Positions 1-48,511 are shown, counted from the first letter of the stretch. The stretch is DNA of 64,000 nucleotides from Candidatus Marinacidobacterales bacterium (GCA_965237955.1 OZ250169.1:768001-832000), one strand, 5' to 3'. The notes: generated from the sequence alone by a model not told the origin. A program made the numbers and translations.

Positions 1-611
1 ACAACCCCACGTCAGCGTGGGTGATTCAACAACTGCGCGAGGCGTTCCCATACGACACGGCACCACGATACTTGGTCTTTGACCGCGACGCGATTTTCAG
101 CCCTGCAGTGGTGGAGTTCATCAGGGCCATGGGCACAAAGCCTGTTCGCATTTCTTATCGCAGCCCTTGGCAAAACGGTACCGCCGAACGCTGGATCGGA
201 AACTGCCGCCGCGAGATGTTAGAGCATGTAGTTGTCCTCAGTGAGCGGCATCTCGTCCGGCTCATGCGCTTGTACATCAGCTACTACCACGAGGACCGTT
301 GCCACTTGGGTCTCGACAAAGACACCCCGAACTCAAGACCCGTCACGCCCCGACCATCACCGACCGCAAAAGTCGTCGCGTTGCCGCGAGTGGGTGGGCT
401 CCACCACCGCTACGAATGGCGCGACGCCGCCTGAGCCAGTTTAGTCGCTGCGCGTCGATTGCTGGGGTCCCTCGCGATTGCGTTGTCCAGCTCCGCGGCC
501 CATTGATCGCGCGATCTCGGCAAGTGCCCGCGCGCGCCGACCCGGGTTTCTTCGTTCGTCGTAGGGCCACCAGCGGTACCATTCCCGCTGGATCAATAAT
601 GATGAAGGACA
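1..611 (+). mobile_element. 3' part of rve/integrase-core DDE transposon (transposase C-terminus to 434, terminus ...AATAATGATGAAGGACA)
   Basis: Near-identical to the inverted copy at 34910-35520; DRD, SPWQNGTAER and GGLHHRY motifs. Confidence 0.85.
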
Positions 612-1149
612 CGTACGACGATCGCCTGCTAGAAGTTGTAGGTAAGGCTCAGATCGAGGAACGTGTCGTTCCGCATCGCGTAGTGGAGATCCGCTTCGTC
701 CACGCTGAGAAGCACAATCGCTTCCGTACGCACGGACCACGCATTGGAGAGGCGCCGGCCGAATTCGAGCGCCAGCGTGCGCGTGGCGCGGGCCACGTCA
801 GTGAGATAACCAGCGGTTATCTCGGTGCTCAGGACATCATTGAAAGCGAGACGCGAGCCGAAGAAAAGGTCGTTCTCGAGCGTGTTAGGCGAACGGCTTG
901 GGGTTGCGTTGCGGCCTCGCCCGTCGTAGTGCGTATTCCGGGGCATCGTGAACGCAGATTCCAGCCGAAGGTGAACATCCATTCCAAAGCATCGTGAACA
1001 CGGATTCCGGGGATCGTGAACATCGATTCCGGGGAAGGTGAACACGGATTCCAGGCAACGTGAACGCCGGTTCCGGCATCGCGAACGCTCATCGATAGCA
1101 CGTTTCAAGGCAACTCTAGGTCGTACCCGGAAGGAGGACGATCTAGGAA

Positions 1150-2706
1150 ATGGCAGCTAAGAGGTTATCGATGAGAAAAATACGAGAGGTTCTAAGGTTA
1201 AAGTACGAGCTGGGTTTTACTCACCGCATGATCGCAAAGGCACTTCGCGTGGCGGTTGGAACGGTGAGTGAGTACCTGGCCAAGGCGAAGAAGGGTGGTC
1301 TGAGCTGGCCGCTCCCGGAGGAGCTGAGCGACGGGGAGCTGGAGGCAGGGCTGTTTCCGCCGCCGGGCTCGTCTGGCGCACGGCCGGGTCTGGACTATGC
1401 CCACATCCACGAGGAGCTGAGGCGTCACCGAGAGCTGACGTTGCTGCAGCTGTGGGTGGAGTACGCGGAGAATAAGCCGGGAGCGTACGGCTACAGCCGT
1501 TATTGCGAGCTGTACGGTCAGTGGAAGAAGAAGCTGAACCCGACGATGCGTCAACGGCATCGAGCAGGCGAGAAGACATTCGTCGATTTTTCGGGGAAGA
1601 AGCCTCACATCGTCGATCCGAAAACGGGAGAGCTCGTCGAAATGGAGCTGTTCGTCGGGACGTTGGGCGCGAGCAGTTACACCTACGTCGAAGCGACACT
1701 GAACCAGTCGCTGGAATCGTGGGCGAAGGCCCATAAGGGGATGTCGGATTACTTCGGTGGCAGTACGGAGATCTGGGTTCCGGACAACTTGAAGAGCGGC
1801 GTGGATTTGGTGGACCGTTACGAGCCAGGGATCAACCGGACGTACGAAGAGATGGCGACGCATTACGGTGCGGTTGTGGTCCCGGCTCGGGTGTTCAAGC
1901 CGAAAGACAAAGCGAAGGTGGAGTCGGCAGTGCAGGTGGCGCAGCGCTGGATCCTGGCGGTGCTTCGTCATCGCACGTTCTTCAGCCTGGCGGAACTGAA
2001 CGAAGCCATCTGGGAGAAGTTAGAGGTCCTGAATGCGCGTCCGATGCAGAAGCTCGGTGTGAGTCGGCGGGAGTTGTACGAAAGGCTAGACCGGCCCGTA
2101 CTGAAACCGCTACCGCAGGAGAGCTACGAGTTATCGACGTGGAAGCGGTGCAGAGTGAACATCGACTACCACGTGGAGGTGGAGAACAACTTGTACAGCG
2201 TTCCCTATCAGCTCATTCACGAGAAAGTCGAGGCACGGGTGACGGCCTCGGTGGTGGAGGTCCTGTTCAAGGGAAAGCGCGTCGCGTCGCATCCCCGCAA
2301 GAAAGGAAAGGGGCACTACTCCACGAACCCGGAGCATATGCCACGTTCGCATCGGGAGCACCTGGAGTGGACGCCGTCGCGGCTGCTCCACTGGGCGGAG
2401 CAGTCAGGTCGCGCCACGGGAAGGCTGGTTGCGGGGATTCTAGAGAGTCGGCCTCACCCGGAGCAGGGATTTCGCTCTTGCCTGGGAGTCATGCGACTAG
2501 GCAGCCGCTGGGGCAGTGAGCGTCTCGAGGCCGCTTGCGCACGAGCGGAAGCTTTGAGCTCTTACAGCTATCGCACGGTGAAAAACATTCTCTCGGCTGG
2601 TCTGGATCGTGTGGTGCTCGAATCGGACGCCGAAGCGAAACCGCGAGAGGAGCACGAGAACATCCGAGGCGCGGATCACTACGAAGGAGGAGAGTCCCGA
2701 TGCTGA
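1150..2706 (+). CDS. istA: IS21 transposase IstA
   Basis: N-terminal HTH; VDFSG, VPDNLKS and KDKAKVE DDE motifs. Confidence 0.95.
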   Translation: MAAKRLSMRKIREVLRLKYELGFTHRMIAKALRVAVGTVSEYLAKAKKGGLSWPLPEELSDGELEAGLFPPPGSSGARPGLDYAHIHEELRRHRELTLLQLWVEYAENKPGAYGYSRYCELYGQWKKKLNPTMRQRHRAGEKTFVDFSGKKPHIVDPKTGELVEMELFVGTLGASSYTYVEATLNQSLESWAKAHKGMSDYFGGSTEIWVPDNLKSGVDLVDRYEPGINRTYEEMATHYGAVVVPARVFKPKDKAKVESAVQVAQRWILAVLRHRTFFSLAELNEAIWEKLEVLNARPMQKLGVSRRELYERLDRPVLKPLPQESYELSTWKRCRVNIDYHVEVENNLYSVPYQLIHEKVEARVTASVVEVLFKGKRVASHPRKKGKGHYSTNPEHMPRSHREHLEWTPSRLLHWAEQSGRATGRLVAGILESRPHPEQGFRSCLGVMRLGSRWGSERLEAACARAEALSSYSYRTVKNILSAGLDRVVLESDAEAKPREEHENIRGADHYEGGESRC

Positions 2707-3458
2707 CACCCGAAACGATAGAAAAGATGAACGCCATGAAGTTGTTCGGCTTGGTGTCCGCGTTCGAAACCCAGTTGAGCTCGAGCGAATACAAGGAGCT
2801 GAGCTTCGAGGAACGTGTGGGACTCCTGGTCGATGCCGAGTGGACCGCCCGCGAACAGCGTAAGCTTTCTCGACGACTGCGAGCGGCAAAGCTCCGCTAT
2901 CCGGCATGTTTGGAGAACGTGAACTTCCAAGCGCCTCGAGGCTTAAACCGCGAACAGATCTTGAGCCTGGGCAACTGCCGCTTTGTCGGTGAGCGCCATA
3001 ACCTGCTCATCACCGGCCCGACGGGGATTGGCAAATCGTTCTTGGCTTGCGCCTTCGTGGAGCGGGCCTGTCGTCGCGGCTTCACCGGATGCTACGTGCG
3101 AGCACCGCGCTTGCTCCACGAGCTCGCGGTCGCTCGTGGTGATGGTTCCTACGCCCGGCTTTTGACGAAACTCGCCAAGCTGGACTTACTGGCTATCGAT
3201 GATTGGCTGCTTCACCCGCTGAAAGAATCGGAGAGACGGGATCTAATGGAGGTCATCGAAGACCGCGCCGAGCGTGGCTCCACACTCATCGCGACCCAGA
3301 TTCCGCTCAAGCAGTGGCACGAAGCGATTGGCGACCCAAACCAGGCAGACGCTATCTGCGATCGCATTCTCCACAGCGCGCACCGCATCACTCTCAAAGG
3401 AGCTTCTCTGAGAAAGACCAAGGCTGCGCCAAAGGCATTTGACAACGCCGATGCATGA
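2700..3458 (+). CDS. istB: IS21 helper ATPase IstB
   Basis: Walker A GPTGIGKS, Walker B LAIDDW; ATG at 2700 overlaps the istA end. Confidence 0.95.
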   Translation: MLTPETIEKMNAMKLFGLVSAFETQLSSSEYKELSFEERVGLLVDAEWTAREQRKLSRRLRAAKLRYPACLENVNFQAPRGLNREQILSLGNCRFVGERHNLLITGPTGIGKSFLACAFVERACRRGFTGCYVRAPRLLHELAVARGDGSYARLLTKLAKLDLLAIDDWLLHPLKESERRDLMEVIEDRAERGSTLIATQIPLKQWHEAIGDPNQADAICDRILHSAHRITLKGASLRKTKAAPKAFDNADA

Positions 3459-4102
3459 GCGAGCGAGGGACCACAGCGTCGATGCGATAAAAACGGGTGA
3501 AACCGCCAAACCCGGGGTACCAGACGATGCGGCGCCAAAACGACGCGCGAGAATGCCTCAGGAAGCGTCTTCTCGAGCCAGGCCATACCCCAGCAACCCC
3601 CCGAAACCAGCCCCACATCGCCCGGGGTTCGGCCGCGGCAGGTCGCTGCCTACGGGAGCGGGAAGGTCGCTTCGCGTCTTTCCTTACGCCCGCTCCCTCC
3701 GGCACCGACCTGCCGCCCCTTGCTACACAACACGCAGGTAAGATAGGTTCACGTTTTCAATCAGTGGAAAGGAGGTCACCCAACACTTCATCGCTTCGAT
3801 GAGCGTTCGGCTTCACCGGATTCGCTGTTCAGCTTGCTCTGGATTCGGCGTTCACGATGGCTGGAATACGCATCGTAGTTCCATTCGCTGATCACGCTGA
3901 GATCGACCACCGATCTAGCCACCGAGTAGAATGTGTACTCGCCGCCGAAAACGGTAGCGAAGTAGTCTCTTCTACTCCCGACAGGTTGCGTGCCCCCGCG
4001 CGCTGAATCGCCTCCGGCTTCAAGAGCCAGGAGCCGGTCGTCATCTGGGCGTCCACCCCGAACTGGCGGATCTGCGCGTAGTCGTCCTGTGCCAAAACTC
4101 GC

Positions 4103-4411
4103 TGTGCCTTCTATTTATTCATCCGGGCGCCCCAAACTTGATTAGTCTCCGGTCTGCCGGCACCATGCCTGCTTGATTTCGTCGTTTGTTCGCGCTCTCA
4201 TCTCCGCCTTCAAGGCTCGTCGCGAGCTGGCTCTCGACAATGTCGCTCTTCGGCAGCAGCTCGCCGTCCTCCGCCGTTCGGTGAAACGGCCGCGGCTCTC
4301 GAACGTCGACCGCGGGTTTTGGGTAACTGTAGAGCCTAAGGGCCCTTGGCCCAGTCGCTAAGCTGCTGATTTATGGTCTATTTCAAAAGGGCTGAGTTTT
4401 GGCACAGGACG
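4103..4411 (+). mobile_element. 309-bp non-autonomous rve-family element (MITE), copy 1
   Basis: Starts TGTGCCTTCTATTTATT, ends TTTTGGCACAGGACG; carries a transposase 5' fragment (ALRQQLAVL); near-identical to 13993-14301 and 22287-22595. Confidence 0.85.
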
Positions 4412-4553: not shown

Positions 4554-5738
4554 ATGGACGCGGACACGGCCAAGAACTCATCTCCAAACAACGGCAAACT
4601 CTGTCCGCCAGCCGAGCCGGGGCGGTGGATTCACGTTTCCTACATAGGCTGTCTAGGCTGTCTCATTTATGTCATCCTTCTACCCATAGGTGGACTGCCT
4701 AACTATTTTCCTCAACAAACCCTCCTAGCCCACGCAGCTCTCGCGATCGTGCTGGTTTCGATAATCTTGGAGCAATACTTTAGTTACGGTACTAGAGTTC
4801 ACAAGCAACGGCTGGAGGACTGTAGCGTCGTGGAGGCTACTATCGTCGAAGCACGAACCGTAGCTCCGCGGCTAACGGAACCCGAAGTGAGACCGCACGA
4901 TTACGATCGGAAGCAAAAAGAACTGCAGGAAGAGGCCACTAGACTGGAAGATATAGGAAGTGAGTGTTGGACGGAGTATCAGATCCTGCCGCTAAGCCAA
5001 ATGCTTGTGGAATTTCTGGCCATTGATGACTTGAAAGAGCAAGCTAGGTCAAGCCTTTCTGATATCGAGGAATACGCGATCGACATTTCGTACCCATTGG
5101 ATATCCGTAGGTACGATCGTTGGGAAGAGCGAATCAACAACAAGATGGGCGAGATTGAGAAAGCGCGTGACCAACCCAAGGGAGTCGATCCTGACATTGC
5201 ACAGGACGACGCCGCCGAACCTTTACGGGCCGCTCTCCGGATGCTTCTCGAGCACGTCGCTGGCTACGAAAAGTACTGGGTTGAGGGAAGCGCATATCTT
5301 CGTAGTCTCATCACGTGTTCAGCGGTAGCGATCCCTGTTTTCGTAGCAATGGGACTGCTACCGCTTTGGCATCCGGGCGGGGACGGCCGGCTCGATTGGT
5401 TGCATTGGGCTCAGTTGGGAATCGCAGGTGCATTGACGGCCGTGTTGCTAGATTATCGGAGATCTGATGTCGTTGAAGTGGGCGTGACGGAGGGCCGAAA
5501 GGAACTGTGGCGTGCCGTCACAGGTTCAGTACTGGGGTCAGTTGCTGGCCTTCTCGTCTACGGCATGTTGCTCGGCGGCCTACTGGAGGGCAACTTGTTC
5601 CCTGAAGTATTGTTCTCTGAAACAGGAAGTGACACGTTGTCGCATGCGGGACGGTCCTTCTTCTGGGCCCTCTCAGCAGGATTCACTTTCGAAAAGGTAT
5701 TCGAACGTGTTCGTGGCGCACTGGGGCCAAATCAATGA
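4554..5738 (+). CDS. Hypothetical multi-pass membrane protein (about 2 N-terminal and 4 C-terminal TM segments around an acidic helical domain)
   Basis: 394-aa ORF with hydrophobic segments; stop overlaps the next ATG (ATGA). Confidence 0.8.
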   Translation: MDADTAKNSSPNNGKLCPPAEPGRWIHVSYIGCLGCLIYVILLPIGGLPNYFPQQTLLAHAALAIVLVSIILEQYFSYGTRVHKQRLEDCSVVEATIVEARTVAPRLTEPEVRPHDYDRKQKELQEEATRLEDIGSECWTEYQILPLSQMLVEFLAIDDLKEQARSSLSDIEEYAIDISYPLDIRRYDRWEERINNKMGEIEKARDQPKGVDPDIAQDDAAEPLRAALRMLLEHVAGYEKYWVEGSAYLRSLITCSAVAIPVFVAMGLLPLWHPGGDGRLDWLHWAQLGIAGALTAVLLDYRRSDVVEVGVTEGRKELWRAVTGSVLGSVAGLLVYGMLLGGLLEGNLFPEVLFSETGSDTLSHAGRSFFWALSAGFTFEKVFERVRGALGPNQ

Positions 5739-6163
5739 AGGATCAACAAGTTCTTCGTTCTATTGACAAGAGTCCTGGCGAGCGGGTCGCGCACGAAGTG
5801 TATGGAGAGGAGCTCATTCTCGATCTGCACGGCTGCCAAACCGAGCGGTTTACACGAGCCGAGATTGCGCGCTTCTGCTCAGAGCTGTGTGAATTGATCG
5901 ACATGGAACGGTGCGATCTGCATTTTTGGGATGATGTAGACGTGCCTGTAGGTGAACGCCAAACGCACCCCAAGACAAAGGGAACGAGCGCTGTGCAGTT
6001 CATCCTCACGAGTACGATCGTCATCCACACGCTGGAGCTGATGGGTTCCGCGTATGTCAACATTTTTTCGTGCAAAGAATTCGATTCAGACGAAGCAGCC
6101 CGTTTTACGGCGAAGTGGTTTGAATCCACTGACTGGACAACCACCGTAGTAACCAGACGCTAA
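5735..6163 (+). CDS. S-adenosylmethionine decarboxylase (SpeD/AdoMetDC)-like proenzyme
   Basis: YGEELILDLHGC, GTSAVQFILTSTIVIHT and VNIFSCK align with the class 1B AdoMetDC pattern; the canonical ESH site reads TST. Confidence 0.75.
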   Translation: MKDQQVLRSIDKSPGERVAHEVYGEELILDLHGCQTERFTRAEIARFCSELCELIDMERCDLHFWDDVDVPVGERQTHPKTKGTSAVQFILTSTIVIHTLELMGSAYVNIFSCKEFDSDEAARFTAKWFESTDWTTTVVTRR

Positions 6164-6186
6164 CGGGCATCAGACTGGAGGTAAGA

Positions 6187-7554
6187 ATGGCTATGTTGTT
6201 GTTCGAGGAGCAATTTGAGGCTTCGGTGAACGTGAGGCATAACGGTCTTCTCGGACACCTCCGCGAATCCAGCGCACGGCAGTTGTCGAAGGACCTCGTA
6301 GCGGTCAGATTCGTGGTCACCTCTAGTACGTCGTCGGGTTATCAATGTGAGCTCGGGGCCATAACCGGCCTTGATGAAACCAGACATCGGTCAATCAGCT
6401 CCATCTTTAGATTCCAACGCCGACTCACCGAGAATGCCCAAGAGTTCAACGTCGTGCTTATGGTTCCCACAGGTGTGGGCTCGGAGATAGGCGGGCACGC
6501 CGGCGATGCCGCCCCAGTTGCCAGAATGCTGGCGGAAGTGTCCGACACGATCCTTCTTCATCCGAACGTGGTGAACGCGTCCGATGTCAACGAAATGCCA
6601 GAGAATGCCCTGTACGTTGAGGGAAGTGTACTGTGCCGCCTATTGATGGGCACAGTTGGGCTGCAACGAGTACGCTCGAATCGTGTTTTGGTCGTAATCG
6701 ATGCACACAGCGACGAACTTTTTGTGAACGCAGCCGTCAATGCTGTCAGTGGCGCTCGAGCCGCCTATGGTCTCTCATGTGCTGAGGTCGTCTGCCTTGA
6801 TCCGCCGGTGAAACTCCTAGCACGCTACGCTGCGTCTGGCAGGGCAGCGGGCCGCGTCGAGGACTTGGAAGGTTTGATCCAGCTACTCGATGATCGTGCT
6901 GGACAGTACGATGCCGTAGCCATCTCATCAGTTATCGACGTACCTGCGGAGTTTCACCAGGGCTACTTTGACGCGGGCGGGAAGATGGTAAATCCGTGGG
7001 GCGGAGTCGAAGCCATGCTAACGCATTCACTGTCAAGCCTTTATAACTTGCCCACAGCTCATTCACCGATGTTCGAGTCTCGAGAGATCGCCAACATGGA
7101 CCCGGGAATTGTCGACCCCCGAATGGCGGCGGAAGCCGTGTCGGCGACTTTCCTACAATGCACCTTGAAGGGTCTTCAAAGAAGCCCTCGCCTCGTTACA
7201 AGTCCACAAGCGATGAACGAGTCAGGGGTGTTCACAGCTTCGGACGTCTCGTGTCTCGTGATCCCAGACGGATGCTTAGGGCTCCCGACGCTCGCGGCGC
7301 TAGAACAGGGTATTCCAGTGATCGCCGTCCGAGAGAACCGCAACAAGATGAAGAATGATCTCTCCTCACTGCCCTGGGCTGCCGGCCAGTTTCATCAGCT
7401 CGAGAACTACTGGGAGGCAGCAGGAGTGATTGCGGCGATGCGCGCCGGGATCGATCCAGTTTCAGTCCGGCGGCCACTCGCCCGAACAACAGTGTCGAAG
7501 TTTGTTGCTTCCGATATGACTCGCGCCGGAAGACGCGGGTCGTATAATCTTTAG
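6187..7554 (+). CDS. DUF3326 family protein with N-terminal extension
   Basis: VPTGVGSEIGGHAGDA, HPNVVN, YVEGS and PRMAAEAV motifs; GGAGG RBS. Confidence 0.8.
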   Translation: MAMLLFEEQFEASVNVRHNGLLGHLRESSARQLSKDLVAVRFVVTSSTSSGYQCELGAITGLDETRHRSISSIFRFQRRLTENAQEFNVVLMVPTGVGSEIGGHAGDAAPVARMLAEVSDTILLHPNVVNASDVNEMPENALYVEGSVLCRLLMGTVGLQRVRSNRVLVVIDAHSDELFVNAAVNAVSGARAAYGLSCAEVVCLDPPVKLLARYAASGRAAGRVEDLEGLIQLLDDRAGQYDAVAISSVIDVPAEFHQGYFDAGGKMVNPWGGVEAMLTHSLSSLYNLPTAHSPMFESREIANMDPGIVDPRMAAEAVSATFLQCTLKGLQRSPRLVTSPQAMNESGVFTASDVSCLVIPDGCLGLPTLAALEQGIPVIAVRENRNKMKNDLSSLPWAAGQFHQLENYWEAAGVIAAMRAGIDPVSVRRPLARTTVSKFVASDMTRAGRRGSYNL

Positions 7555-7965
7555 TGTCCCTTCCGGGGATGGTAGAGACCTGTGCCTTCTATTTATTCAT
7601 CCGCGCGCACCGAATTTGACTAGTCCCTATACAAGCGCGATTGTGAGAAAAAAATAGGCCAGGGAAGAGAGACATCCTTTCGAGGCCTGCTAGCAGGAAA
7701 GCCGCTGCACGGCCTCGTTCGGCTACCCCGTCCTGTGCCAAAACTCCAGCCCTTTCGAAATAGACCACAAATCAGCGGCTTAGACGCCCTTGGAATCCGC
7801 GCAGAATCGAGGGTATTTCGCGCCGCAGGGTTGTCTTCCGACCCCTGGGCTGCGGGTGGCGAGCGAAGGCCCACCGGGGGTGCGCACGGCTGGCTCAAAT
7901 CGGCTGCGGGGCGAGCTACGGGCAGTGAAACTGCGCACCCGGAAGTCGTAAGGTCAAAATACTCA

Positions 7966-9333
7966 GGATCCGTCCCGCTTCCCGTGGAAATAAGAATGGC
8001 GTAACCTCCGGTTAAACAAAACGAAACCGCGCCTGGAAAGGCGAGGAGGAGGATTACGCCATGAAGAAGCCTACCACCATATCGAAGGAGTCTGTAAGCG
8101 AGTATCGGGAGTTCGTCCAACTTCGGCTGCGTAAGCGGGTACTGGAGGCAATCGAGGTCGTGCTCGAGGAAGAAGTCGACCAAGCGCTGGGGTGTGGTAG
8201 CTACGAGCGTGCGGAAGACCGCCGTGGATATCGCAACGGAGCCGAAACCCGTCGCGTGACGACGTCGGTGGGGACTCGGCGAGCTCCGGGTGCCACGAGC
8301 CCGCGTGCGAGACGAGGAAACGGGAGAAACGACAGAGTTCAGGAGCGAGCTGTTGCCCCGGTACGCGCGCCGGACTCGTGAGGTCGACGAGGCGATCTTG
8401 GGGACGTACTTGTCGGGCGCGAATAGCCGCCGGATCCGCAAAGCGCTGAAACCACTGCTCGGTGAGGAGCACCTATCGAAGAGCGCGGTGTCTCGCGTGG
8501 TTAGCCGGCTGAAGGAGCGCTTCGAGGAATGGCAGAACCGTGCTCTCAGCGAGGAGGTCTACGCGATCGTTTACCTGGACGGCTTCCACCTGAAAGTACG
8601 GATGGCGAAACGTGTGATCAGCGTACCCGTACTGGTCGCGCTCGGGGTCGCGCCAGACGGGCACAAACGTCTGTTGTCATTGCGTCTGGCGGTGAGCGAA
8701 GCCTCGACGCATTGGGGCTCCGTGCTGGAGGGACTCCAGGCTCGAGGACTCCGGGCTCCCAAGCTAGTGATCAGCGACGGCCACAAGGGGCTGACGAAAG
8801 CGCTGGAGAAGTGGCCGGGGTGCCGGTTGCAGCGATGTACCGAGCACAAGCGCGCCAACTTGCTCGAACATTGCCCGGCGCACGCACGCCGTGAGCTCCG
8901 GCGTGACTACAACCGGATCGTCTACGCCAAGAACGGGATCGATGCTCGCAAAGCCTATGACGAGCTCGTCGCCAAGTGGACGCCTCTCGCGCCGGCCGTC
9001 GTCCGAAGCCTAGAGGAGGCCGGTAATCAGCTGCTGACCTTCTACGAATTCCCTCGTGCCATGTGGAAATCGATTCGAACGACCAATGCTCTGGAGAATC
9101 TCAACCGCGAGTTTCGACGCCGGACGAAAACCCAAGCGTCGTTCTCCAGCGAGGAGTCCGCGGTCGCTTTGCTGTTTGGGCTTATCGCCTCTGGCCAGAT
9201 TCAACTACGACGCATCGACGGCTACCAACGTCTGAGCGAGGTTCTCGAACACGCGGAGGTTGCCGCCTGATCTGATACTCTGATGACGGAGTGGAGCGTG
9301 CCGTTCTTTTTCCACGGACCTCGGGACACATCC
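7966..9333 (+). mobile_element. IS256-family element
   Basis: Imperfect IRs GGATCCGTCCCG.. / ..CGGGACACATCC; DR AATACTCA (7958-7965, 9335-9342). Confidence 0.9.
8061..9270 (+). pseudogene. IS256 transposase, frameshifted near 8280
   Basis: GYRNG in ORF1, then VPRAR, YLDG and RTTNALENLNREFRRR in ORF2; one extra base in CGG-C-GAG. Confidence 0.85.
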
Positions 9334-10692: not shown

Positions 10693-10741
10693 CGGCTGAT
10701 TTATGGTCTATTTCAAAAGGGCCGAGTTTTGGCACAGGACG

Positions 10742-33252: not shown

Positions 33253-33256
33253 TGTC

Positions 33257-34888: not shown

Positions 34889-34909
34889 CGTCCTGTGCTA
34901 AAACTCGGC

Positions 34910-39263: not shown

Positions 39264-39429
39264 AGCTCGTTGCTCTCGGTGCAGCTCAAATCACGTCGGG
39301 ATAACGATACGCATCAGCTGTGGACGCCGACCCTGGGAGCGTAGCATGTATCGGCGTCCGGCGGCTGCACGTGACGTTAGGCAACGCCCGATCATAGATC
39401 CTTCGTCATGTGGTACTGCGTGTGTCCCT

Positions 39430-39718: not shown

Positions 39719-40086
39719 CGTCCTGTGCCAAAACTCGGCCCTTTGAAATAGACCACAAATCAGCAGCTTAGACGCCCTTGGAATCCGCGCAGAATCGAGG
39801 GTGTTTCGCGCCGCCGGGCTGGCTTCCGACCCCGTCCTGTGCCAAAACTCGGCCCTTTTGAAATAGCCCATAAATACATCTGACATCAAGAAATGTAGAA
39901 GCGTGAGCGGTGTCAATTGGCTTTCCACCTCTCCGATCTAAAGAGGTCTGGGCACCGCGAGCCCGGTCAATCTCCGTCGTCATACCCCGTCACCGTGCCG
40001 CATTCTGTTCAACTTGTCAACGCCGGCCGAAAACTGCGCATTCATGGCGGATGAAAATTGCACACCCGAGCCATGGGTGGCGAACC

Positions 40087-40926
40087 CTATGACGCCGTCG
40101 CCTCCGTGTATTTCCTATGAGATTTAGCCGGCGGGTGAGGTTCGTCCGAACCCGCCGGATGGAGCGCTCGCCACAGTTCGGAGTGCTCTCTCATGCGGTA
40201 ACTGTTTCCTCGGATGTTGACGAGGTGGCAGTGGTGCAGAATGCGGTCGATGAGAGCGGCGGCCATGACTTCGTCGCCAAGGATCTCGCCCCATTCCTCG
40301 AAACTTTTGTTAGAGGTGAGCACGGTCGAAGCGCGCTCGTATCGCCTACTTATGAGCTGGAAAAAAAGCACCGCGCCGGTCTGGGTGACGGGTAGGTATC
40401 CGATTTCATCGACAACAAGCAGTGACGGATAACTGAGAACCGCGAGTCGACGAGTGAGGCGGCCCGCGTCACGAGCCTCTTCGAGGGAGGTGATGAGCTC
40501 AGCCAGGGTGCCGTAATAGACGCGCCGTCCATTCTGGGCAGCGGCGATGGCAAGACTAATCGCGAGATGAGTTTTGCCCACACCAGGAGGTCCCAATAAG
40601 ACGACGTTCTCCTTACGTTCAACGAACCCGAGCTCGTGAAGGTTCTCAATCTGCTCGCGTTTGATCGATGGCTGGAACGAAAAATCGAACTCATCGATTG
40701 TTTTGACCGCGGGGAGTCGTGAGGAGCGCATCGCCGCTTGGAGACGACGGTTGTTTCTCAACGTGATCTGCGCTCCAAGAAGGTTCTCGATGGCCTCCGC
40801 CGTTGTGACCGCACCGCCATCGGCATCAGATAGTACGCGGTCGACAGCTTCGAGCGCGCCAGGCATCTTTAGGTCGGCCAGCATCGTACGGATCTGCTCA
40901 CGTCGCGATATTGTGCTCGCCTTCAT
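40087..40926 (-). CDS. istB: IS21 ATPase IstB
   Basis: GPPGVGKT, VVDEIGY, LTSNKSF. Confidence 0.95.
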   Translation of the reverse strand: MKASTISRREQIRTMLADLKMPGALEAVDRVLSDADGGAVTTAEAIENLLGAQITLRNNRRLQAAMRSSRLPAVKTIDEFDFSFQPSIKREQIENLHELGFVERKENVVLLGPPGVGKTHLAISLAIAAAQNGRRVYYGTLAELITSLEEARDAGRLTRRLAVLSYPSLLVVDEIGYLPVTQTGAVLFFQLISRRYERASTVLTSNKSFEEWGEILGDEVMAAALIDRILHHCHLVNIRGNSYRMREHSELWRALHPAGSDEPHPPAKSHRKYTEATAS

Positions 40927-41978
40927 TGTCCACCTCCAACGAGCCGCGTGTAGACTTCGAGGGGACGATGCTCGACATCCATCGAAGGCAGTGTGGTTAA
41001 GCAGGCTTTTGGAGTTCTTCTCGCGGGTTGGTTTGGCAGTACAAGAGAGCGATATGGCCGCTCAACGAGCGGTCTCAGAGTGGCCCTTTCATCGCGCGCG
41101 AATCGTTCTATCGGTCGTTCGTTGGTTGTGCGATGGAGTCGGACGTTGGCGACGTCACTCAGCCAACGCTCGAGCTGAGCATCGAGGTCGTCATCGTTGA
41201 TAAAGTGGCGACCGTAGAAGAAGCTTCCTCTCACATAGCGGATTGGCCTTTCCACTTTGCCCTTGGTCTTCGCCCGATACGGGCGACACGCTCTTGTTCG
41301 AAACTCCCAGTGGTGGGCGAAGCGGACGAACTCTGGGTTCTCAACGAGAGGGCCACCTTCCCGGCGGTGATCCTCGACGATGACCGAACGCATCTGGTCA
41401 AAAAGGAGCTCTTTGGGAACTCCTCCAAAAAATAGGAAGGCCTGCTCAAGCCCCGCGAACAACGTCCGCATGTCCTGTCGCTTGAAAAACCGAAGCCATA
41501 GCAGCCTCGAGTATCCGAGCACCACGAGAAGTGCCCACCGACGACCCCATGGCAAACGAAAGTGTGCAAAATCGACCTGAGCTTGGTGGCCTGGTGGGGT
41601 CTCGAAACGCACCAGCGGCTCCGCCGGTGGCTGTGGGCGAATCTGCCGCACGTACTCCTTGACCTGCGTGTAGCCGCCTTCATAGCCCGCGGCACGGATC
41701 TCATCATGCAGGCGTACTGAACTCAGCTCCGGGAACTCGTGCAGGCGCGAATGAAGGATCTCCCGGTACGGGTCGATCCTGCGCTCGATCCGCGGACGCT
41801 TCTTGTAGCGCACCGTTTCCTCGTCCAACTCTCGGTCCAGTTGACCCGTCTTTATCCAGTGGTGGACCGTTCGGCGGCTGATTCCTAGCTTGTCTGCTAG
41901 CGCCGCCTTCTTGATTCCCTGCTCCAAATACTCTCGTAGTAACACTCGTTTCTCCCTTCCGTACATCGGCGCCTCCAC
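40923..41978 (-). CDS. istA: IS21 transposase IstA
   Basis: RFETPPG..QVDF, LFDQM, TKGKVER. Confidence 0.95.
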   Translation of the reverse strand: MEAPMYGREKRVLLREYLEQGIKKAALADKLGISRRTVHHWIKTGQLDRELDEETVRYKKRPRIERRIDPYREILHSRLHEFPELSSVRLHDEIRAAGYEGGYTQVKEYVRQIRPQPPAEPLVRFETPPGHQAQVDFAHFRLPWGRRWALLVVLGYSRLLWLRFFKRQDMRTLFAGLEQAFLFFGGVPKELLFDQMRSVIVEDHRREGGPLVENPEFVRFAHHWEFRTRACRPYRAKTKGKVERPIRYVRGSFFYGRHFINDDDLDAQLERWLSDVANVRLHRTTNERPIERFARDERATLRPLVERPYRSLVLPNQPARRTPKACLTTLPSMDVEHRPLEVYTRLVGGGQ

Positions 41979-42503
41979 TCCGGAAACGCCATTCTGATTG
42001 AAGGCGCGCCGTCATGTCTGGCACTCCAGACACACGACAACGGCCTCCTTTTACGGATGGCCGAGTGTGCAATTTTCGTCCGCCATAAGTGTGCAATTTA
42101 CGCCCGCCGCTAACACAACTTCGCCGTTGTCCCAAGCCCATCCTGTCACACACGCCTGACAGGCTCGGTCACGCTGTCGCTGGGGACGACTACTGGGCAT
42201 ATGGCACTCAATCGCCTTGCTGGATTTTCGTGAGCGCCTCACTTGCAGCCTCCGCCAAGGAACCAGTGCAGTGCTGCGTGTCCTTCATCATTATTATAGT
42301 CGGCACCCTGGGCATCAGCGGGGGAACTGTCCGGCGCAGCAGGCTTCTGGCCAGGCTCCTTCGTTGTCCCCCCCCGTCGTGATTCGGCCACAGGCACCCC
42401 ACGATCGGCGGAGCGGGGCGTGCGACTGGCTGTCGCGCGAGCTTCATACATCCCGGTAGAACAATTCAGCCTCGTGGGCGGAAACCCTCCGTGTGGTCAA
42501 ATG

Positions 42504-43053
42504 GAACCCGTCACGTGCTGCTCGTGATATTTCCCTGTTCTTCCGGAGCAATTTCCCTGTTCGCCTATTTCAAATTCCCTGTTCGGTCATCTTAAATTCC
42601 CTGTTATTTCAGAACAGGGAATTACCAGCTAACTATTTGAAATATAGAGGGTTACCACGTCAAGAAACGGCCGGATCGGCACAAAAATGGCCAGAATTCC
42701 CTGTTTTTCCCTGTTATTCTATGGTTACCAGCCGAGACCGGATAGCTCCAACCTGCACCATCCGCCACCCAGTCTGGCCAATTGTGGCACTGCAGAGACG
42801 GGTGAGGTTTTCCGCGCGGTTGGCGGGGTTTTCCAGGATTAGGTGGCACCAGAGACGCGCTAGAAGGGCTGAACGGGCCTCATTTTCGGTTTTCGTCTCT
42901 AATCCCGATTTTCGAGTGCCACGTTTGCGCCAAATAGAGGAGCGGGCGCTGACCGGACCATGCGGCAGCGGAAAAGAGACCACCCGAGAGGCCCAGAATC
43001 GAGGCCGGGGCTACCGCGGCGTAAGTGGGCCTAGCAAGTTCTGGTCCAGGTGC
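42504..43053 (+). repeat. TTCCCTG iteron cluster plus the 330-bp repeat, copy 2
   Basis: Six direct TTCCCTG and one inverted CAGGGAA; homologous to 47617-48170. Confidence 0.85.
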
Positions 43054-43206
43054 GAGGCGTTGTCGCCTTCGCCGCCGCCGTCGTCCCATTCGACCGCGAA
43101 CCAGCCCTGATCGTCCGCACTTACGGCCCTTGGCCCGGTCGCAAACACGGACACTAAGCTGCTGAATTATCGTCTATTTTAAAGGGCCGAGTTTTGGCAC
43201 AGGACG

Positions 43207-43550
43207 GGACTTCGAGTCCCGGTCGTGAATGAGATATCGGCTTGAGGACAGAAAGCCGACATCTGCCATGGTCACGTTGCGAGCCACTTGAGTCATCCAC
43301 TGTTCGTTCGGATGCGGCGTGATGCCGGCGACGTGGACTCGACGGGTAGCCAAGTGTATGAAGAACAGAACGTAGTACGTCACCAACCCGCCCCGAGTCC
43401 ACACTTCCGCGGTGAAGAAATCTGTCGCCGTGAGGACATCTGTGTACTTTTTGCGGAGCACAGGCGGCATGTGGTTTCAGGCGGCACCGTGTTCATGGGT
43501 TCGAGCGTCGTGTCATCGACGTTCGGGTATGCCCAGCTTCTGAGGATCGA
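43207..43550 (-). pseudogene. rve transposase fragment
   Basis: ATDFFTAEVWT..YYVLFFIHL..IHDRDSK. Confidence 0.8.
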
Positions 43551-43590
43551 ACGGCCACGCCCCTGAGCTGGCACGCTTGACCAAAGCCGC

Positions 43591-46062
43591 TTACTGCGCC
43601 GAGACTTCATCTTGGACACTCTCAGACGTAAGAAACAAAGCGATCGGCACGGACTCTATGTAGTTCTTTCGCCCAGAAGTGATGAGCAGTCGATGGACGC
43701 CTTTCACGTTAAAGCCCGCGATCGGTACGGAAAACTCGATGCGTCGTCGAAATCGCGCGGGCGGGCCGGTTGTCGTGCTGCAAGTATCCCACTCGATTCC
43801 CGCCTTGATACTGGCGTTCTCCATGCTGGCCGCGAGCTGTTTCGCAATCTCGTCCACATCAGCGTCCTCGCCTTGTGTCAGCACCGTATTCCAAATGCGC
43901 CGGAAGACACGCCTCATGCGGCCTAATTTTCCGGCGTTCCTGATCTCCAAATTGATCAGCGGATTGGCGTCGATTGTAAATATAAGGCTTGCCAATTTCT
44001 CGGCAAGCGGCGCCCACTGGGAACGGTGACCTACATCCGCCGCTGTGCTCGTGTGTTCGTGCAGTTGCCTCCAATCCGACGGTGCGTCGGTATAGATGGC
44101 AGACCCAGTCAAATGGGCGACGAACAAAGCCAACTCAAGACTCATGCCGCGGAATACCTGATATTCCCCGCTGTCTTTGCCAACCAGGACGGGTTGGAGT
44201 AGCGCAAACGGATCGTTCGCCAGCTTCTCCTTCGTATACTCGATTGTGCATTCAAGTAACTCGGCACCGATGTCGGGTTGGCTTTCGCGAACCATCCGCC
44301 TTAACTCGTCCTCCGGCCGCCGCAACCTCCATCGTTCGAAGTCATCTCTGACCAAGGCCATCCCAAGTCGCATGTCTTTCTCGGTCGGCTTCCAGTTCGC
44401 CGTGCGTTTTTCGACCATTGCCCTAATTGCGCGTCGAAAATCGGCGTTGAATTCCATTGGATCGGGCACAAAATGGACGATGCCGGCGTCGATAAACGGT
44501 TGTAGCGTCAACAAGACGCTCACGTTCTTGAGCATCGGTGATTTGTGCTGTGCCGGCGATTGCGTGGGGCTGTATTCGGATTTCATGTACACCGGGTTCG
44601 GGAACGGGTTCAGAATCACGATCTCGTCGAAGTAGGCGAGAGAGCTGATCACACTCACAGCTATCGTTCGCGGATCAATAAACCCCATGTAGACAGCTCG
44701 AAACACCCCCCTGTCCGGGCGAGGGAGCAGATCGGCGATGTTGGTGTCCTTCGGCCACAGCATCTCCAGCATCTTGTGGATGTCCTTCACTTGGTTATTG
44801 CTCAACTCCCGCCGCACGTCCTCCCATGTCTTCCTCTTGTTCAGTCCAAGAATGTCGATGACTGCATTGCAAAACATCAGGTTACGGTCGCGGAGGCTGT
44901 CGACATCCCACGGCGGCCGATCATCAATCGCCATGCCACTGCAGCATTTCTTGTATCTGTGCCCACTGCCGCAGCCGCACGAATCGTTCGGCGAAGGCTC
45001 TGTCGGCGGAGCCTTCTTCTTCAGAAACTCATGACTGATATCGGTCCGGCCGAATGCATCTTGATAATGCGTCAAACCGTCCTTATAGCCGATGTAGATT
45101 TCCCCGCCGAAGTGCCAAAGCATATCGCTGGGCGGCAGAAGAACCCTGCCGATGTCCTCCCACGCAACCAACCCAGTTTTCTCTGGAAACAGCCACTCCT
45201 CGTCGTACGCTGCAAGGTACTGCCGCGACCTCGTCTTCAGCATAGAATTGATCGAAACAACCTCGTCGGGTGTTAGCATCCGCGTCCGAATCATCGCGTC
45301 CGTACGAATCAGGGTCTGGCCGGAGTATCGTGCGTTCTGCCGTCGAGCGAGCAGATCGACGCCAGCGGGATCCTGAGCATACTCAAGGTTGGTCAGGATG
45401 AGACAGTGATCTGCGTCCAGAGGGAACACCGTCTGCGTGCCCTTCAGATCTATCGAAGGATCCTCCGGATACTGACAGGCAGAGGACGTGGGCGCGCTGG
45501 CAGAGTTGTAGGCCGTGACTGGATGGTCAGTCACGACGAATTTCACATCTGACTTCTCCGCCGAAACGATCTCGCGCACGGACTCAAACCACATCGTACA
45601 ATGCATCTGCCGTAGATGCTGCATCTCCAGCATCAGGTCGATCTGTGTCAGACTCGGATACCTGCTTTTGATCCAATCGAGACCCTTCGGCGTCCTCAGC
45701 CTCTGCGCGTTTAGATATTCAAAGAACCGCTGGAAATACTCGTGGATTACTTGCTGGTCATTGCTGGCGAACGCACGTATTACGGTGGCGCCGCTCGCAT
45801 CGATTCCTCCGAATAGAAACTTCTCGATTTCGTCATTCAACGTGCGTCCAAACCGCATCGTATAGAGGTCTTTCTCTCGGAAACATCGCTTTGGTGAACG
45901 GAGTTCAAGCTCCTTTCCGATGATTATGCGGCCATTGGGAAGCTCGGTCTTCGGAGGATCCCGATCCAAGTACTGGAGTGTGCTCCTCGGCCCGAGAATG
46001 AAACCTTTCTGGTACCAAATCGGGACATAGTGGTTCTGACGGGTAATTCGCGCTTGCTTCAT
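43591..46062 (-). CDS. DUF4238 plus SEC-C zinc motif multidomain protein
   Basis: NHYVPIWYQKGF, FVVTDHPV, PNDSCGCGSGHRYKKCC. Confidence 0.8.
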   Translation of the reverse strand: MKQARITRQNHYVPIWYQKGFILGPRSTLQYLDRDPPKTELPNGRIIIGKELELRSPKRCFREKDLYTMRFGRTLNDEIEKFLFGGIDASGATVIRAFASNDQQVIHEYFQRFFEYLNAQRLRTPKGLDWIKSRYPSLTQIDLMLEMQHLRQMHCTMWFESVREIVSAEKSDVKFVVTDHPVTAYNSASAPTSSACQYPEDPSIDLKGTQTVFPLDADHCLILTNLEYAQDPAGVDLLARRQNARYSGQTLIRTDAMIRTRMLTPDEVVSINSMLKTRSRQYLAAYDEEWLFPEKTGLVAWEDIGRVLLPPSDMLWHFGGEIYIGYKDGLTHYQDAFGRTDISHEFLKKKAPPTEPSPNDSCGCGSGHRYKKCCSGMAIDDRPPWDVDSLRDRNLMFCNAVIDILGLNKRKTWEDVRRELSNNQVKDIHKMLEMLWPKDTNIADLLPRPDRGVFRAVYMGFIDPRTIAVSVISSLAYFDEIVILNPFPNPVYMKSEYSPTQSPAQHKSPMLKNVSVLLTLQPFIDAGIVHFVPDPMEFNADFRRAIRAMVEKRTANWKPTEKDMRLGMALVRDDFERWRLRRPEDELRRMVRESQPDIGAELLECTIEYTKEKLANDPFALLQPVLVGKDSGEYQVFRGMSLELALFVAHLTGSAIYTDAPSDWRQLHEHTSTAADVGHRSQWAPLAEKLASLIFTIDANPLINLEIRNAGKLGRMRRVFRRIWNTVLTQGEDADVDEIAKQLAASMENASIKAGIEWDTCSTTTGPPARFRRRIEFSVPIAGFNVKGVHRLLITSGRKNYIESVPIALFLTSESVQDEVSAQ

Positions 46063-46497
46063 CGCGACGCTTGGTTGTCCGGCTGATGATCTGCAAAATA
46101 GAAGATCGGCCAGAAACAGCCGACCATAGCAGGTCTAAAACGCGCAATCAACGCCGGAGCGTTTTTTGCGGAGCACAACTAAGCTGCTGATTTATGGGCT
46201 ATTTCAAAAGGGCCGAGTTTTGGCACAGGACGGGGTCGAGCAACTTCACGAACCCCCTTGGAAGAGGTCGAAAACAAAAACGTGAACAGTCACTCGTCTT
46301 CCCTCATCTTCTTTGCTACGCATCTGGACACGCCACTCCCCAGTCTCTTCGCAAGGCAGGTCACGGAAGAATAGGCGGTGGTCCCTAACCGTACCAGGCA
46401 ACGCGTCCAGTATCTGGGAGAAATTCCTGTTCTTCGAATTGAAAACGATCAGTGACGCCTTAGTCTCAAAAACCATTAACTGGAGCTTCTGAGGCTA

Positions 46498-47304: not shown

Positions 47305-47616
47305 CAGCGATGCTAACTTATTGTGCTCGTCTAAATCGATTACGACTCACTCGAGATTGTATATCATGCAGGTGCTTGCGCTGTTTACTGTTGATAATAT
47401 GTACGTATCCCTTTGAAAAAAGGCGCTTACGCTCCATTTAGCGCGCAGCGAAGGTCACGAGCGCTATTTCGGCTGTAATTTAATGCACCGTAAAGTCTTA
47501 GCGTCATCTCACCAACACTTAATGGCAGAAGCACCGCCACCAACGAAAAATGTGCGGGAATTCGCTTCCGAAACCCACCGGCGTTGCCCAGGTCGGAGAT
47601 GGAACTCTTTTGAATT

Positions 47617-48170
47617 GAACCCCTCACGTGCTGCTCGTGATATTTCCCTGTTCGCTCATCTCAATTCCCTGTTTTCCCAGAGCAATTCGCTGTTCGCCTA
47701 TTTCAAATTCCCTGTTCTTTCGGAACAGGGAATTGCCATCTAACCATTTGAAACATAGAGAGTTATCACGTGAAAAACGGCCGAATCGGCAAAAAATGGC
47801 CCAAATTCCCTGTTAATTCCCTGTTATTGATGGTTTTCAGCCGAGACCGGATAGCTCCAAACTGCCCCATCCGCCACCCAGTCCGGCCGATTGTGGCACT
47901 GCAGAGACGGGTGAGGTTTTCCGCGCAGTTGGCGGGGTTTTGCAGGATCAGGTGGCACCAGAGACGCACTAGAAGGGCTGAACGGGCCTCACTTTCGGTA
48001 TTCGTCTCTAATCTCGATTTTCGAGTGCCACGTTTGCGCCAAAGGGGGGAGCGGGCCGCTGACAGGACCGTGCAGCGCCGGAAAAGAGGCCGCCCGAGGT
48101 ATCCAGAATCAAGGCCAGGGCTACCGCGGCGTAGCCGGCTAGCACGTTCTGGTCCAGGTGCGGCCCGGGC
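47617..48170 (+). repeat. TTCCCTG iteron cluster plus the 330-bp repeat, copy 3
   Basis: Homologous to 42504-43053. Confidence 0.85.
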
Positions 48171-48511
48171 CTAGATCCAGGTCTCCGCCCGGGAGCGTGG
48201 CATCCCGTTGCTGGACGGTGTTTTCCCTGCGCGTACGGGGAACCCGAATCGCCGACATCGCCTCCGACGCGCCCCAAATCTAGGGCTCGCCATGGGTCGA
48301 TGACGATCGAAACGGCCCGGCGCGCGAGTCTTGAGTTCGTTTGTGTTTTTGGACAGGACGGGGTTGTGCCTTCTATATTATTCATCCGCGCGCACCGCCG
48401 CCCAGCCCATCCTCAATGAGCTGGTTCATGAGACAGCATAGATTGCCGGCTAGTCTGCCGGCTAGTTTGCCGGCTTTAGATATTGATTCTATCTGCTATG
48501 ATGCCTCCTCC

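What the first reader, a model, noticed from the sequence alone, without database searches (positions are those of the whole stretch)
611..48400. Cargo array delimited by about 30 rve-transposon termini: candidate integron-like gene accretion platform
Seen: five related termini, all 5'-YGT followed by an A/T tract. Type A (CGTCCTGT(G)CCAAAA) occurs 17 times: 4083, 4411, 7729, 10741, 14301, 18316, 22140, 22595, 26774, 26955, 34018, 34889, 39719, 39833, 43206, 46232, 48360. Type B (TGTGCCTTCTAT) occurs 6 times, all in one orientation: 4103, 7581, 13993, 22287, 26597, 48365. Type C is at 611, 34910, 42279; type D at 36255, 37115; type E at 7947, 14554. Unrelated cargo blocks lie between them, often cut just past a stop codon: 17 bp (629), 26 bp (7554), 28 bp (pyk), 26 bp (33991), and 57 bp with the terminator kept (groEL). 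No ends were seen inside the BREX operon. Inference: one integrase-core transposase family builds a modular array of defence, stress and metabolic genes by repeated end-mediated capture and trimming.
Basis: partly seen in the sequence, partly recalled or inferred. Interest (0 to 1): 0.85.

Follow-up and report, generated by a model that had tools for sequence, protein, structure and literature searches.

The report
Transposon-end mosaic islands trading genes
About 1,100 ends of an unclassified insertion-sequence family pave about 30% of this bacterial chromosome, and gene blocks lying between such ends (chaperonins, pyruvate kinase, an anti-phage system) recur 92-99% identical in other genera, likely because single ends trim and re-join neighbouring DNA, which would be a gene-shuffling route different from integrons.

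Summary
The termini are real. They are the inverted-repeat ends of several related single-gene DD(35)E insertion sequences (rve_3; below the IS3 and IS481 cut-offs). Type A belongs to a 1,428-bp element, not to the 35087 transposase. The genome has 1,126 ends, 1,079 of them in 2.4 Mb of islands, and ten related genomes carry the same A end in bulk. Cargo lies outside the ends, between short chimeric mini-elements.

Target duplications are at chance level, also in Streptomyces and Bradyrhizobium relatives. A ends are joined one-sidedly (NCC 374, GGN 13), and existing junctions are reused about 7-fold. The groESL, pyk and 33257 blocks recur across genera with nested, progressively shorter borders and different neighbours. 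An A-anchored DUF2924-serine recombinase module at 95-98% identity occurs in the same ten genomes.

Verdict: probably single-end trimming and re-joining (IS26/MITE-like in outcome), not an integron. The mechanism is inferred. No earlier finding of the scan describes it.

The parts
1..611 (+). 3' part of an ISC copy ending in a C-type end at 611
   Evidence: 99% inverted repeat of 34910-35520; rve_3
4083..4411 (.). A end (4083) truncated after 20 bp by a 309-bp B...A chimeric mini-element (4103-4411)
   Evidence: (D1)
4554..7554 (+). cargo: unknown ORF, AdoMet decarboxylase, DUF3326; between outer edges of A (4411) and B (7581)
   Evidence: no near-identical copy in 5 relatives
7581..7970 (+). 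nested B, A and E ends (7581, 7729, 7947)
10688..10741 (-). A end, terminus at 10741
11229..13749 (-). PDC-S32/AbiJ-like defence gene split by an unclassified multi-copy element of about 1.7 kb (about 11394-13107)
13837..14554 (.). A2 end (13837), B...A mini-element (13993-14301), E end (14554)
15211..17378 (-). cargo: PtuA/PtuB (Septu-like) pair
17427..18092 (-). broken rve transposase remnant containing an F2 end at 17458
18316..22140 (+).
22287..22595 (.). B...A mini-element; its A end abuts the hairpin downstream of groEL
22596..25199 (-). cargo: hsp20-groES-groEL block; 4 copies in this genome, 92-99% identical in 4 other genomes
26597..26955 (.). B...A mini-element (26597-26774) and A2 end (26955)
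26984..28413 (-). cargo: pyruvate kinase trimmed to 7 bp before ATG (degenerate F end at 28413) and 28 bp after the stop
32581..33991 (+). cargo: two genes of unknown function; F end 3 bp after the last stop
33995..34909 (+). F end (33995), A end (34018) with the 3' part of an ISA transposase gene (34248-34888, minus strand), A end (34889) cut after 21 bp
34910..36255 (-). complete ISC element (1,346 bp, C and D ends, transposase 35087-36136)
36256..37115 (-). exact 860-bp tandem partial copy of ISC: the D end is joined to the interior of a second copy
   Evidence: (D4)
37445..46232 (.). further ends F 37445, A 39719, A 39833, C 42279, A 43206, F 43462, F 46177, A 46232 around cargo (nucleoside deoxyribosyltransferase-like, DUF4238) and an IS21-family element
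48308..48400 (.). back-to-back A2 (48360) and B (48365) ends, 4 bp apart
48512..64000 (+). BREX-1 type operon (brxA, brxB, brxC, pglX, TrlF-like ATPase, AlbA_2 protein, pglZ, brxL), free of ends; its first 4 kb are 99% identical in one other genus

Best explanation
The termini are ends of several subfamilies of one unclassified single-gene DD(35)E insertion-sequence family, and these ends likely act one at a time, each re-joining itself to a new nearby site and so trimming, duplicating and re-connecting the gene blocks that lie between them. Shown: autonomous elements ISA (A...A, 1,428 bp), ISC (D...C, 1,346 bp) and ISA2 (1,348 bp); about ten times more ends than intact elements; chimeric mini-elements; no target duplications; one-sided junction sequences; reuse of existing junctions; nested border series; and sharing of blocks between genera. 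Inferred steps: (1) the transposase nicks one end and transfers it to a preferred site (AYCC^NGT for A), as in the asymmetric first step of copy-out elements; (2) in cis this deletes the adjacent DNA, and on a sister copy it makes a partial tandem duplication; (3) because an old junction matches the preferred site, new ends replace or land beside old ones, which keeps activity inside islands and lets a block keep its border while changing neighbours; (4) selection stops erosion at useful genes; (5) blocks travel between genomes inside larger pieces bounded by more distant ends or by recombination between repeated mini-elements, with other IS families contributing. The carrier between cells is unknown.
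For: 3-bp duplications in 0 of 22 ISA, 4 of 16 ISC and 0 of 6 ISA2; 14 of 273 facing pairs against 10.0 by shuffling, p=0.11; 0 of 15 relatives in Streptomyces, Bradyrhizobium and other genomes of the class, and 0 of 7 ISC relatives. A-end flanks are NCC 374, GGN 13, other 124, with the same bias in four relatives; a two-ended insertion would give equal numbers. Uninterrupted alleles give an asymmetric target. No excess of reciprocal half-sites at +3 (27, against 46 at +2 and 49 at +4). The same flank is joined to ends of two families at the same base in 90 cases, against 13 per offset at 1-20 bp. 4 of 24 tandem duplications have their junction at an end. Nested borders: groESL at -72, -6, -1, 0, +9; pyk at +22, +29, about +36; 33991 gene at +72, +14, +3. 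The recombinase module has a fixed A end and a ragged other side. 45 of 170 borders of shared blocks lie at an outer edge (null 1.0%), and neighbours are kept in 6 of 33 cases. Ends fall inside predicted genes in 38 of 856 cases against 44 of 360 for control IS, p=2e-6.
Against: End-to-stop distances are not shorter than for control IS (107 vs 130.5 bp, p=0.71), and only slightly shorter than random motif-matched intergenic sites (147 bp, p=0.011). TGT-type ends are near-symmetric (B 45 NCC:35 GGN, F 35:23, C 14:11), as two-ended insertion followed by scrambling would give. One empty site shows a clean two-ended insertion with a 3-bp duplication. 105 of 170 shared-block borders are not at catalogued ends, and many are at other IS. 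Control IS also lose duplications (IS21-like keep them in 18 of 40, IS3-like in 6 of 13), and two control families are island-restricted too (124 of 125; 83 of 94). The +3 junction at 33995 could also be a deletion between two GGC triplets. Junction reuse may be a passive result of sequence preference, and the counts are not independent. No reaction was observed and no raw reads were seen.
Confidence: 0.55

Rival explanations
1. Ordinary IS graveyard: the elements insert two-endedly in tolerant genomic islands, RecA recombination between the many copies and mini-elements scrambles the flanks, and the cargo is simply what selection left; horizontal transfer of island DNA is independent of these ends.
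For: No shortening of end-to-stop distance against control IS. Symmetric flanks of TGT-type ends. One 3-bp-duplication empty site. Other IS families also lose duplications and cluster in the same islands. Most shared-block borders are not at these ends. Recombination and adjacent deletion are the usual causes of missing duplications (PMC11708052, abstract and passages). Two islands begin or end within 0.6-14 kb of tRNA genes.
Against: Recombination cannot turn a 50:50 flank ratio into 374:13. No reciprocal half-sites. Only 44 of 511 A ends sit in intact elements, against 68-83% paired for three control families. Different families end at successive positions of the same cargo border.
Confidence: 0.25
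2. Dedicated integron-like platform: the A-anchored DUF2924-large serine recombinase module excises and integrates end-delimited blocks as circular cassettes, and the transposase only cuts the borders.
For: Recombinase copies at 95-98% identity occur in exactly the ten A-end-rich genomes of 55 searched. All 48 close hits in this genome are in islands and 16 are full length. pyk is trimmed to a cassette-like form with the same upstream junction in 10 of 10 copies.
Against: The module's far side is ragged, with no shared att-like boundary in 50 copies. No polarity. Borders differ between copies of the same block, unlike site-specific recombination. Co-occurrence is expected anyway if the module rides on A ends. 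No promoter consensus was found upstream of pyk in the one copy scanned.
Confidence: 0.12
3. Assembly artefact: repeats joined DNA of co-occurring organisms or replicons into a chimeric metagenome assembly.
For: Metagenome-assembled relatives; estimated contamination 6.2%; 53% of island DNA is repeated; 98% identity between genera; the 36255/36256 tandem junction was not seen in four runs' contigs.
Against: Identical cargo-end junctions recur in separately assembled genomes with different neighbours. Junctions fall exactly on IS termini with a family-specific sequence preference. A contig of run X1 spans 33602-34029 across an F end. The no-duplication signature also holds in plasmids of named Streptomyces and Bradyrhizobium strains.
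Confidence: 0.05

Closest known systems
IS26 (IS6/IS26 family) resistance regions
   Same: Clusters of unrelated genes separated by IS, and a reaction aimed at an existing IS end that makes no target duplication (PMC7885326, Introduction read).
   Different: Unrelated transposase clade. IS26 reacts between like ends of intact, directly oriented copies and makes 8-bp duplications in copy-in mode. Here the ends are mostly solo or in chimeric mini-elements, unpolarised, and swap between subfamilies.
IS3 / IS481 families (copy-out, asymmetric first strand transfer; adjacent deletions)
   Same: rve_3 domain, DD(35)E with Arg at +7, TGT...ACA ends in some subfamilies, single ORF as in IS481. One-end transfer as first step (PMC7780238 passages). 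Sloppy transfer proposed to explain deletions (10.1101/2023.06.07.543989 passages). Adjacent deletions that extend over time (PMC11708052 passages).
   Different: All five proteins tested score far below both NCBIfam cut-offs. CGT...ACG ends in the dominant subfamily, no frameshifted ORF pair, duplications essentially absent, about ten times more ends than elements. No IEE-type primase found.
TIMEs and other MITE-bounded composite transposons
   Same: Short non-autonomous end pairs that flank and can mobilise host segments; one TIME derivative carries a resolvase (PMC4133298, abstract).
   Different: TIMEs have 38-bp Tn3 ends and make 5-6-bp duplications. Here the mini-elements join ends of different subfamilies, leave no duplication and number in the hundreds per chromosome.
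Integrons (IntI, attI, attC cassettes)
   Same: Compact, recurring gene blocks, sometimes trimmed to the ribosome-binding site, found in different orders.
   Different: No integron integrase in the window, no polarity, no single insertion site, variable borders; the separators are IS ends. The definition is recalled from general knowledge.

Membership tests
Integron | Tyrosine recombinase IntI next to the array | tested here: not met
   None of 18 PF00589 hits in the genome lies in or near the window; none among 69 window ORFs.
Integron | Cassettes and sites in one orientation | tested here: not met
   A 267+/244-, B 55+/57-; consecutive same-strand 228 of 510 and 59 of 111.
Integron | Fixed site-specific cassette borders | tested here: not met
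   The same block has several borders.
Integron | attC hairpin sites | not tested
   No attC model was run; the separators are shown to be IS inverted repeats.
IS481 family | NCBIfam NF033577 score above 224 bits | tested here: not met
   80-104 bits for five full-length proteins.
IS481 family | Single ORF with DD(35)E core | tested here: met
   One 339-364-aa ORF; D178, D244, E279, R286 in ISA.
IS481 family | TGT...ACA ends (recalled) | tested here: inconclusive
   Met by B, C, D, F; A, A2, E begin CGT.
IS481 family | Target duplication of 4 bp or more (4 bp in the SBW25 element, PMC11708052) | tested here: not met
   None of 4 bp or more in 44 full elements or 15 distant relatives.
IS3 family | NCBIfam NF033516 score above 160 bits | tested here: not met
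   80-85 bits.
IS3 family | orfA/orfB with programmed frameshift | tested here: not met
   Single continuous ORF in 25 ISA and 16 ISC copies.
IS3 family | Circular intermediate with abutted ends | tested here: inconclusive
   No end-to-end joint in contigs of four runs, but contigs drop rare forms; one 3-bp back-to-back pair among 309 in the genome.
IS26 family | Tnp26-related transposase and 8-bp duplication | tested here: not met
   Pfam gives rve_3/HTH only; no 8-bp duplication.
IS26 family | Targeted conservative reaction at an existing end | not testable with these tools
   Only the sequence footprint is seen: junction reuse 90 vs 13 per offset.
TIME/MITE composite transposons | Repeated non-autonomous end pairs | tested here: met
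   A-B 309 bp, A-A 317 bp, A-E 138 bp, F-F2 about 90 bp and others, 12-15 copies each.
TIME/MITE composite transposons | Composite flanked by a target duplication | tested here: not met
   No cargo-carrying composite with an empty site was found.

The most novel reading that the evidence does not exclude
An undescribed IS family whose normal chemistry is uncoupled single-end exchange aimed at existing end junctions. Together with an A-anchored serine recombinase module it forms a distributed, self-expanding cassette-shuffling system that has built megabase islands and a shared pool of defence, chaperone and metabolic modules across genera of one bacterial order: an integron-like outcome by transposase chemistry.
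Probability: 0.3. Interest if true: 0.85.

Novelty: new variant of a known kind. Interest (0 to 1): 0.66.

Why it matters
IS26 shows that one IS with unusual end chemistry can dominate gene flow in a group of bacteria. Here a common but unclassified transposase family (7,980 of 7,998 scored candidates at E<=1e-30; also on Streptomyces, Leptospira, Rhizobium and Bradyrhizobium plasmids) lacks target duplications wherever checked. In one order it has remodelled about 30% of the chromosome into a gene pool shared between genera. If single-end transfer is its normal pathway, that is a new transposition outcome, testable with a 1.4-kb element in a laboratory strain. It would also explain how environmental bacteria assemble compact defence and stress islands without integrons.

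Tried and rejected
1) A 'CG' dinucleotide duplication or blunt insertion into CC^GG for ISA: rejected, because uninterrupted alleles read NGT after the junction (C 44% at +1, G 66% at +2, T 61% at +3).
2) Empty-site searches: 1 match with 5 bp lost; 32 facing pairs had collinear flanks elsewhere but with other spacings; of 9 candidates, 8 were dropped as self-hits or repeat matches and 1 kept.
3) Trimming-to-stop test: negative against control IS. It rests on my own simple gene caller, which mis-calls some genes.
4) Control-IS duplication counts used a crude rule that also caught terminal palindromes; only the IS21-like and IS3-like counts are used.
5) Island definition uses the ends themselves, so '1,079 of 1,126 inside' is circular. 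The independent figures are variance/mean 10.9 and no A end between 4.68 and 7.39 Mb.
6) IEE primase PF22548 and coupling protein PF02534: not found in this genome.
7) AlphaFold model of ISA transposase from a 5-row alignment: pLDDT 50.9, not used, no fold search run. PDB sequence search gave only Sleeping Beauty at E=0.076.
8) Contigs of public runs: no circle junction and no 36255 tandem joint; contigs show presence only.
9) Promoter for pyk inside the upstream mini-element: no consensus hit on that strand.
10) Solo-end excess outside this order: not seen in 40 kb around one Streptomyces and one Bradyrhizobium copy or with one pattern on the Streptomyces plasmid; weak tests.
11) Telomeric transposons (10.1101/2024.11.13.623437, passages): TnsB/TnsC elements, unrelated.
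12) 882-bp tandem repeats in G018 have no end at their junctions.
13) IR pairs were found in only 15 of 60 loci and ISC pairs in 7 of 68 loci; the rest were dropped.
Full report
OBSERVATION. The window holds seven more ends. It is 768,001-832,000 of a single 8.13-Mb contig. Public records carrying 97-99% identical copies of the 35087 transposase are titled 'Candidatus Marinacidobacterales bacterium' (Vicinamibacteria, Acidobacteriota), so the window probably comes from that order (inference).

WHAT THE TERMINI ARE. tblastn and clustering gave 107 ORFs of one transposase family in the genome. ISA (1,428 bp, 22 complete copies) has an A end on both sides. ISC (1,346 bp, 16 copies; the 35087 gene) runs from D to C. 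ISA2 (1,348 bp, 6 copies) has A2 ends. B- and F-like ends go with rarer subfamilies. The proteins are 29-56% identical to ISA. They are single ORFs with HTH and rve_3 domains and D178-D244-E279-R286 in ISA. They score 80-104 bits against an IS481 cut-off of 224 and 80-85 against an IS3 cut-off of 160. The family is large and mostly unnamed and occurs on 106 of 72,556 plasmids, mainly Streptomyces and Leptospira.

SCALE. Ten seeds give 1,126 ends: A 511, A2 214, B 112, C 37, D 23, E-types 89, F-types 140. 1,079 lie in 2.4 Mb of islands (defined by the ends, so circular). Independently, A ends have variance/mean 10.9 per 50 kb, against 1.8-2.4 for four control IS, and none lies between 4.68 and 7.39 Mb. 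Two control families are island-restricted as well (124 of 125; 83 of 94). Only 44 of 511 A ends are in intact elements, whereas three control families are 68-83% paired. The A 18-mer occurs 31-511 times in 10 of 151 genomes of the class, all in two families of this order. Outside the order the highest count is 6. Incomplete assemblies may hide repeats.

ARCHITECTURE. Neighbouring ends face inward 310 times, outward 309 times and the same way 506 times. 188 inward pairs are under 600 bp, many of them repeated chimeras (A-B, A-E, F-F2), and 49 are whole elements. 212 of 309 outward gaps are 1 kb or more. Cargo therefore sits outside the adjacent ends. The main exception is a DUF2924-large serine recombinase module inside an A end. 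It has 48 pieces, 16 full length, all in islands, a fixed A side and a ragged far side in 50 copies. At 95-98% identity it is present in the same ten genomes of 55 searched; an eleventh genome has mainly 53-61% relatives and one 93% fragment. There is no polarity.

JUNCTION CHEMISTRY. 3-bp duplications: ISA 0 of 22, ISC 4 of 16, ISA2 0 of 6; all facing pairs 14 of 273 against 10.0 shuffled; 0 of 15 in distant hosts and 0 of 7 ISC relatives. A ends are preceded by NCC 374 times and GGN 13 times. TGT-type ends are closer to even. 176 uninterrupted alleles give AYCC^NGT for A. Reciprocal half-sites are not enriched at any offset. The same flank is joined at the same base to two families in 90 cases, against 13 per offset. 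67 remain after dropping near-identical seed pairs, and 29 are CGT/TGT swaps; cases are counted from both sides and are not independent. One empty site shows a mini-element inserted with a 3-bp duplication directly beside an older A end, so two-ended insertion does occur. Four of 24 tandem duplications (4 of 13 in islands) join an end to the interior of a second copy, including 36255/36256.

CARGO. hsp20-groES-groEL occurs 4 times in islands here and at 92-99% in G008, G015, G018 and G033. Island groEL is 94-99.5% identical between these genomes, while the core groEL genes compared are 79-85% identical. Its downstream border is F at -72 in 6 of 13 distinct copies, B at -6 in 1, A at -1 or 0 in 4 and A2 at +9 in 2; two of these ends are degenerate and were read by eye. 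pyk (45% identical to the core paralogue) is in 7 of 55 genomes, all A-rich. It has the same upstream junction 7 bp before ATG in 10 of 10 copies examined, three downstream borders, and mostly under 310 bp of shared context. The 32581-33991 block is in six other A-rich genomes, whole or in part, with borders 72, 14 and 3 bp after the stop (my notebook's 73 is a miscount). The first 4 kb of BREX is 99% identical in 1 of 54 other genomes. The 4554-7554 block had no close copy in 5 genomes. In 1.6 Mb chosen from end-rich parts of four relatives, 190 shared segments were found; 92 remained after removing multi-copy and sub-kb ones (median 1.7 kb, 98.2%, 87 in islands). Of 184 borders, 14 at piece edges were dropped. 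45 of 170 lie at an outer edge (null 1.0%), 11 at an inner edge, 9 at listed other IS and 105 at none. Neighbours are kept in 6 of 33 cases. Many of the unassigned borders are ends of other IS or repeats.

End-to-stop distance has a median of 107 bp (n=160), against 130.5 bp for control IS (n=46), p=0.71; against random motif-matched sites it is 147 bp, p=0.011. End-to-start distance shows no difference. Ends do avoid gene interiors more than control IS (38 of 856 vs 44 of 360). Trimming is thus visible in individual series but is not a precise stop-codon rule; selection sets the limit. No integron integrase is near, and no circles were seen.

MECHANISM. The best-supported reading (inferred, 0.55) is single-end strand transfer, as in the asymmetric first step of copy-out elements (PMC7780238, passages), but aimed at any AYCC^NGT-like site and so often at old junctions. 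This gives adjacent deletions that lengthen stepwise (as seen for IS150 in PMC11708052, abstract and passages), partial tandem copies, chimeric mini-elements and end swaps. Blocks then move inside larger pieces or by recombination between mini-elements, helped by other IS. How they cross between cells is unknown: no coupling protein was found, and two islands lie next to tRNA genes. Rivals: an ordinary graveyard with recombination and survivor bias (0.25), a recombinase-driven cassette platform (0.12), misassembly (0.05).

COMPARISON AND NOVELTY. It works like IS26 regions (PMC7885326, Introduction read) and TIME composites (PMC4133298, abstract) in outcome, and like IS3/IS481 in chemistry (also 10.1101/2023.06.07.543989, passages), but it fails the membership tests for each and for integrons. 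Ten literature searches (listings only, apart from the papers named) found no description of this family, of these islands or of the taxon name (0 papers). The library lacks most subscription papers, no supplements were read, and ISfinder could not be consulted, so a prior name for the family is possible. The scan's own index had nothing matching by sequence or words. Verdict: a new variant of a known kind, unusual in scale and in its one-sided junctions; interest 0.66.

Noticed in passing
window 11394-13107: Multi-copy element (about 12 near-full copies, 95-99%) with a 480-aa ORF that hits nothing in Pfam or NCBIfam; it splits a PDC-S32/AbiJ-like defence gene. Possibly an unclassified IS.
   Followed up: partly
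window 18580-20674: DUF2924 plus large serine recombinase, 16 intact copies in this genome and up to 25 or more in relatives, with a 1.2-1.6-kb mostly non-coding tail; function unknown.
   Followed up: partly
window 42531-42666 and 47644-47777: Tandem TTCCCTGTT repeats next to a repeated 293-bp segment; 85 of 108 genome copies of the 9-mer are in islands.
   Followed up: partly
window 48512-64000: BREX-1 type operon with an inserted TrlF-like PHP/ATPase gene and an AlbA_2 protein between pglX and pglZ; ARAGORN calls a tRNA-Leu at about 61369 inside pglZ, probably spurious.
   Followed up: partly
window 4554-7554 and 14711-15028: Unknown ORF + AdoMet decarboxylase + DUF3326 operon, with a second AdoMet decarboxylase fragment (75%) 8 kb away.
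   Followed up: no
genome-wide, motifs: Two other end types behave oddly: a GTGCTT-type end (IS66-like, label recalled) has 94 copies but only 6 pairs, and a GGCGTTGTTGCAC-ended IS has 124 of 125 ends inside islands.
   Followed up: partly
G018 (joined regions 149653-152312, 210850-212615); G000 C1 3639717-3640610: 882-bp unit in 2-3 tandem copies, resembling an internally deleted group II intron (label recalled).
   Followed up: no
G000 C1 1148475-1161045 vs G018 C1 near 8.58-8.62 Mb: About 12.5 kb shared at 99.8-99.9% between two genera at an island edge next to a tyrosine recombinase gene (1161198): very recent transfer.
   Followed up: no
G000 C1 690997-694267: ISC flanked on both sides by partial tandem copies of itself, each junction at an end.
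   Followed up: partly
L188 19815-20831 and 38234-40312: On a Bradyrhizobium plasmid a relative of this IS sits 20 bp after the last gene of a metabolic operon, and a 692-aa recombinase-family gene lies 18 kb away.
   Followed up: no
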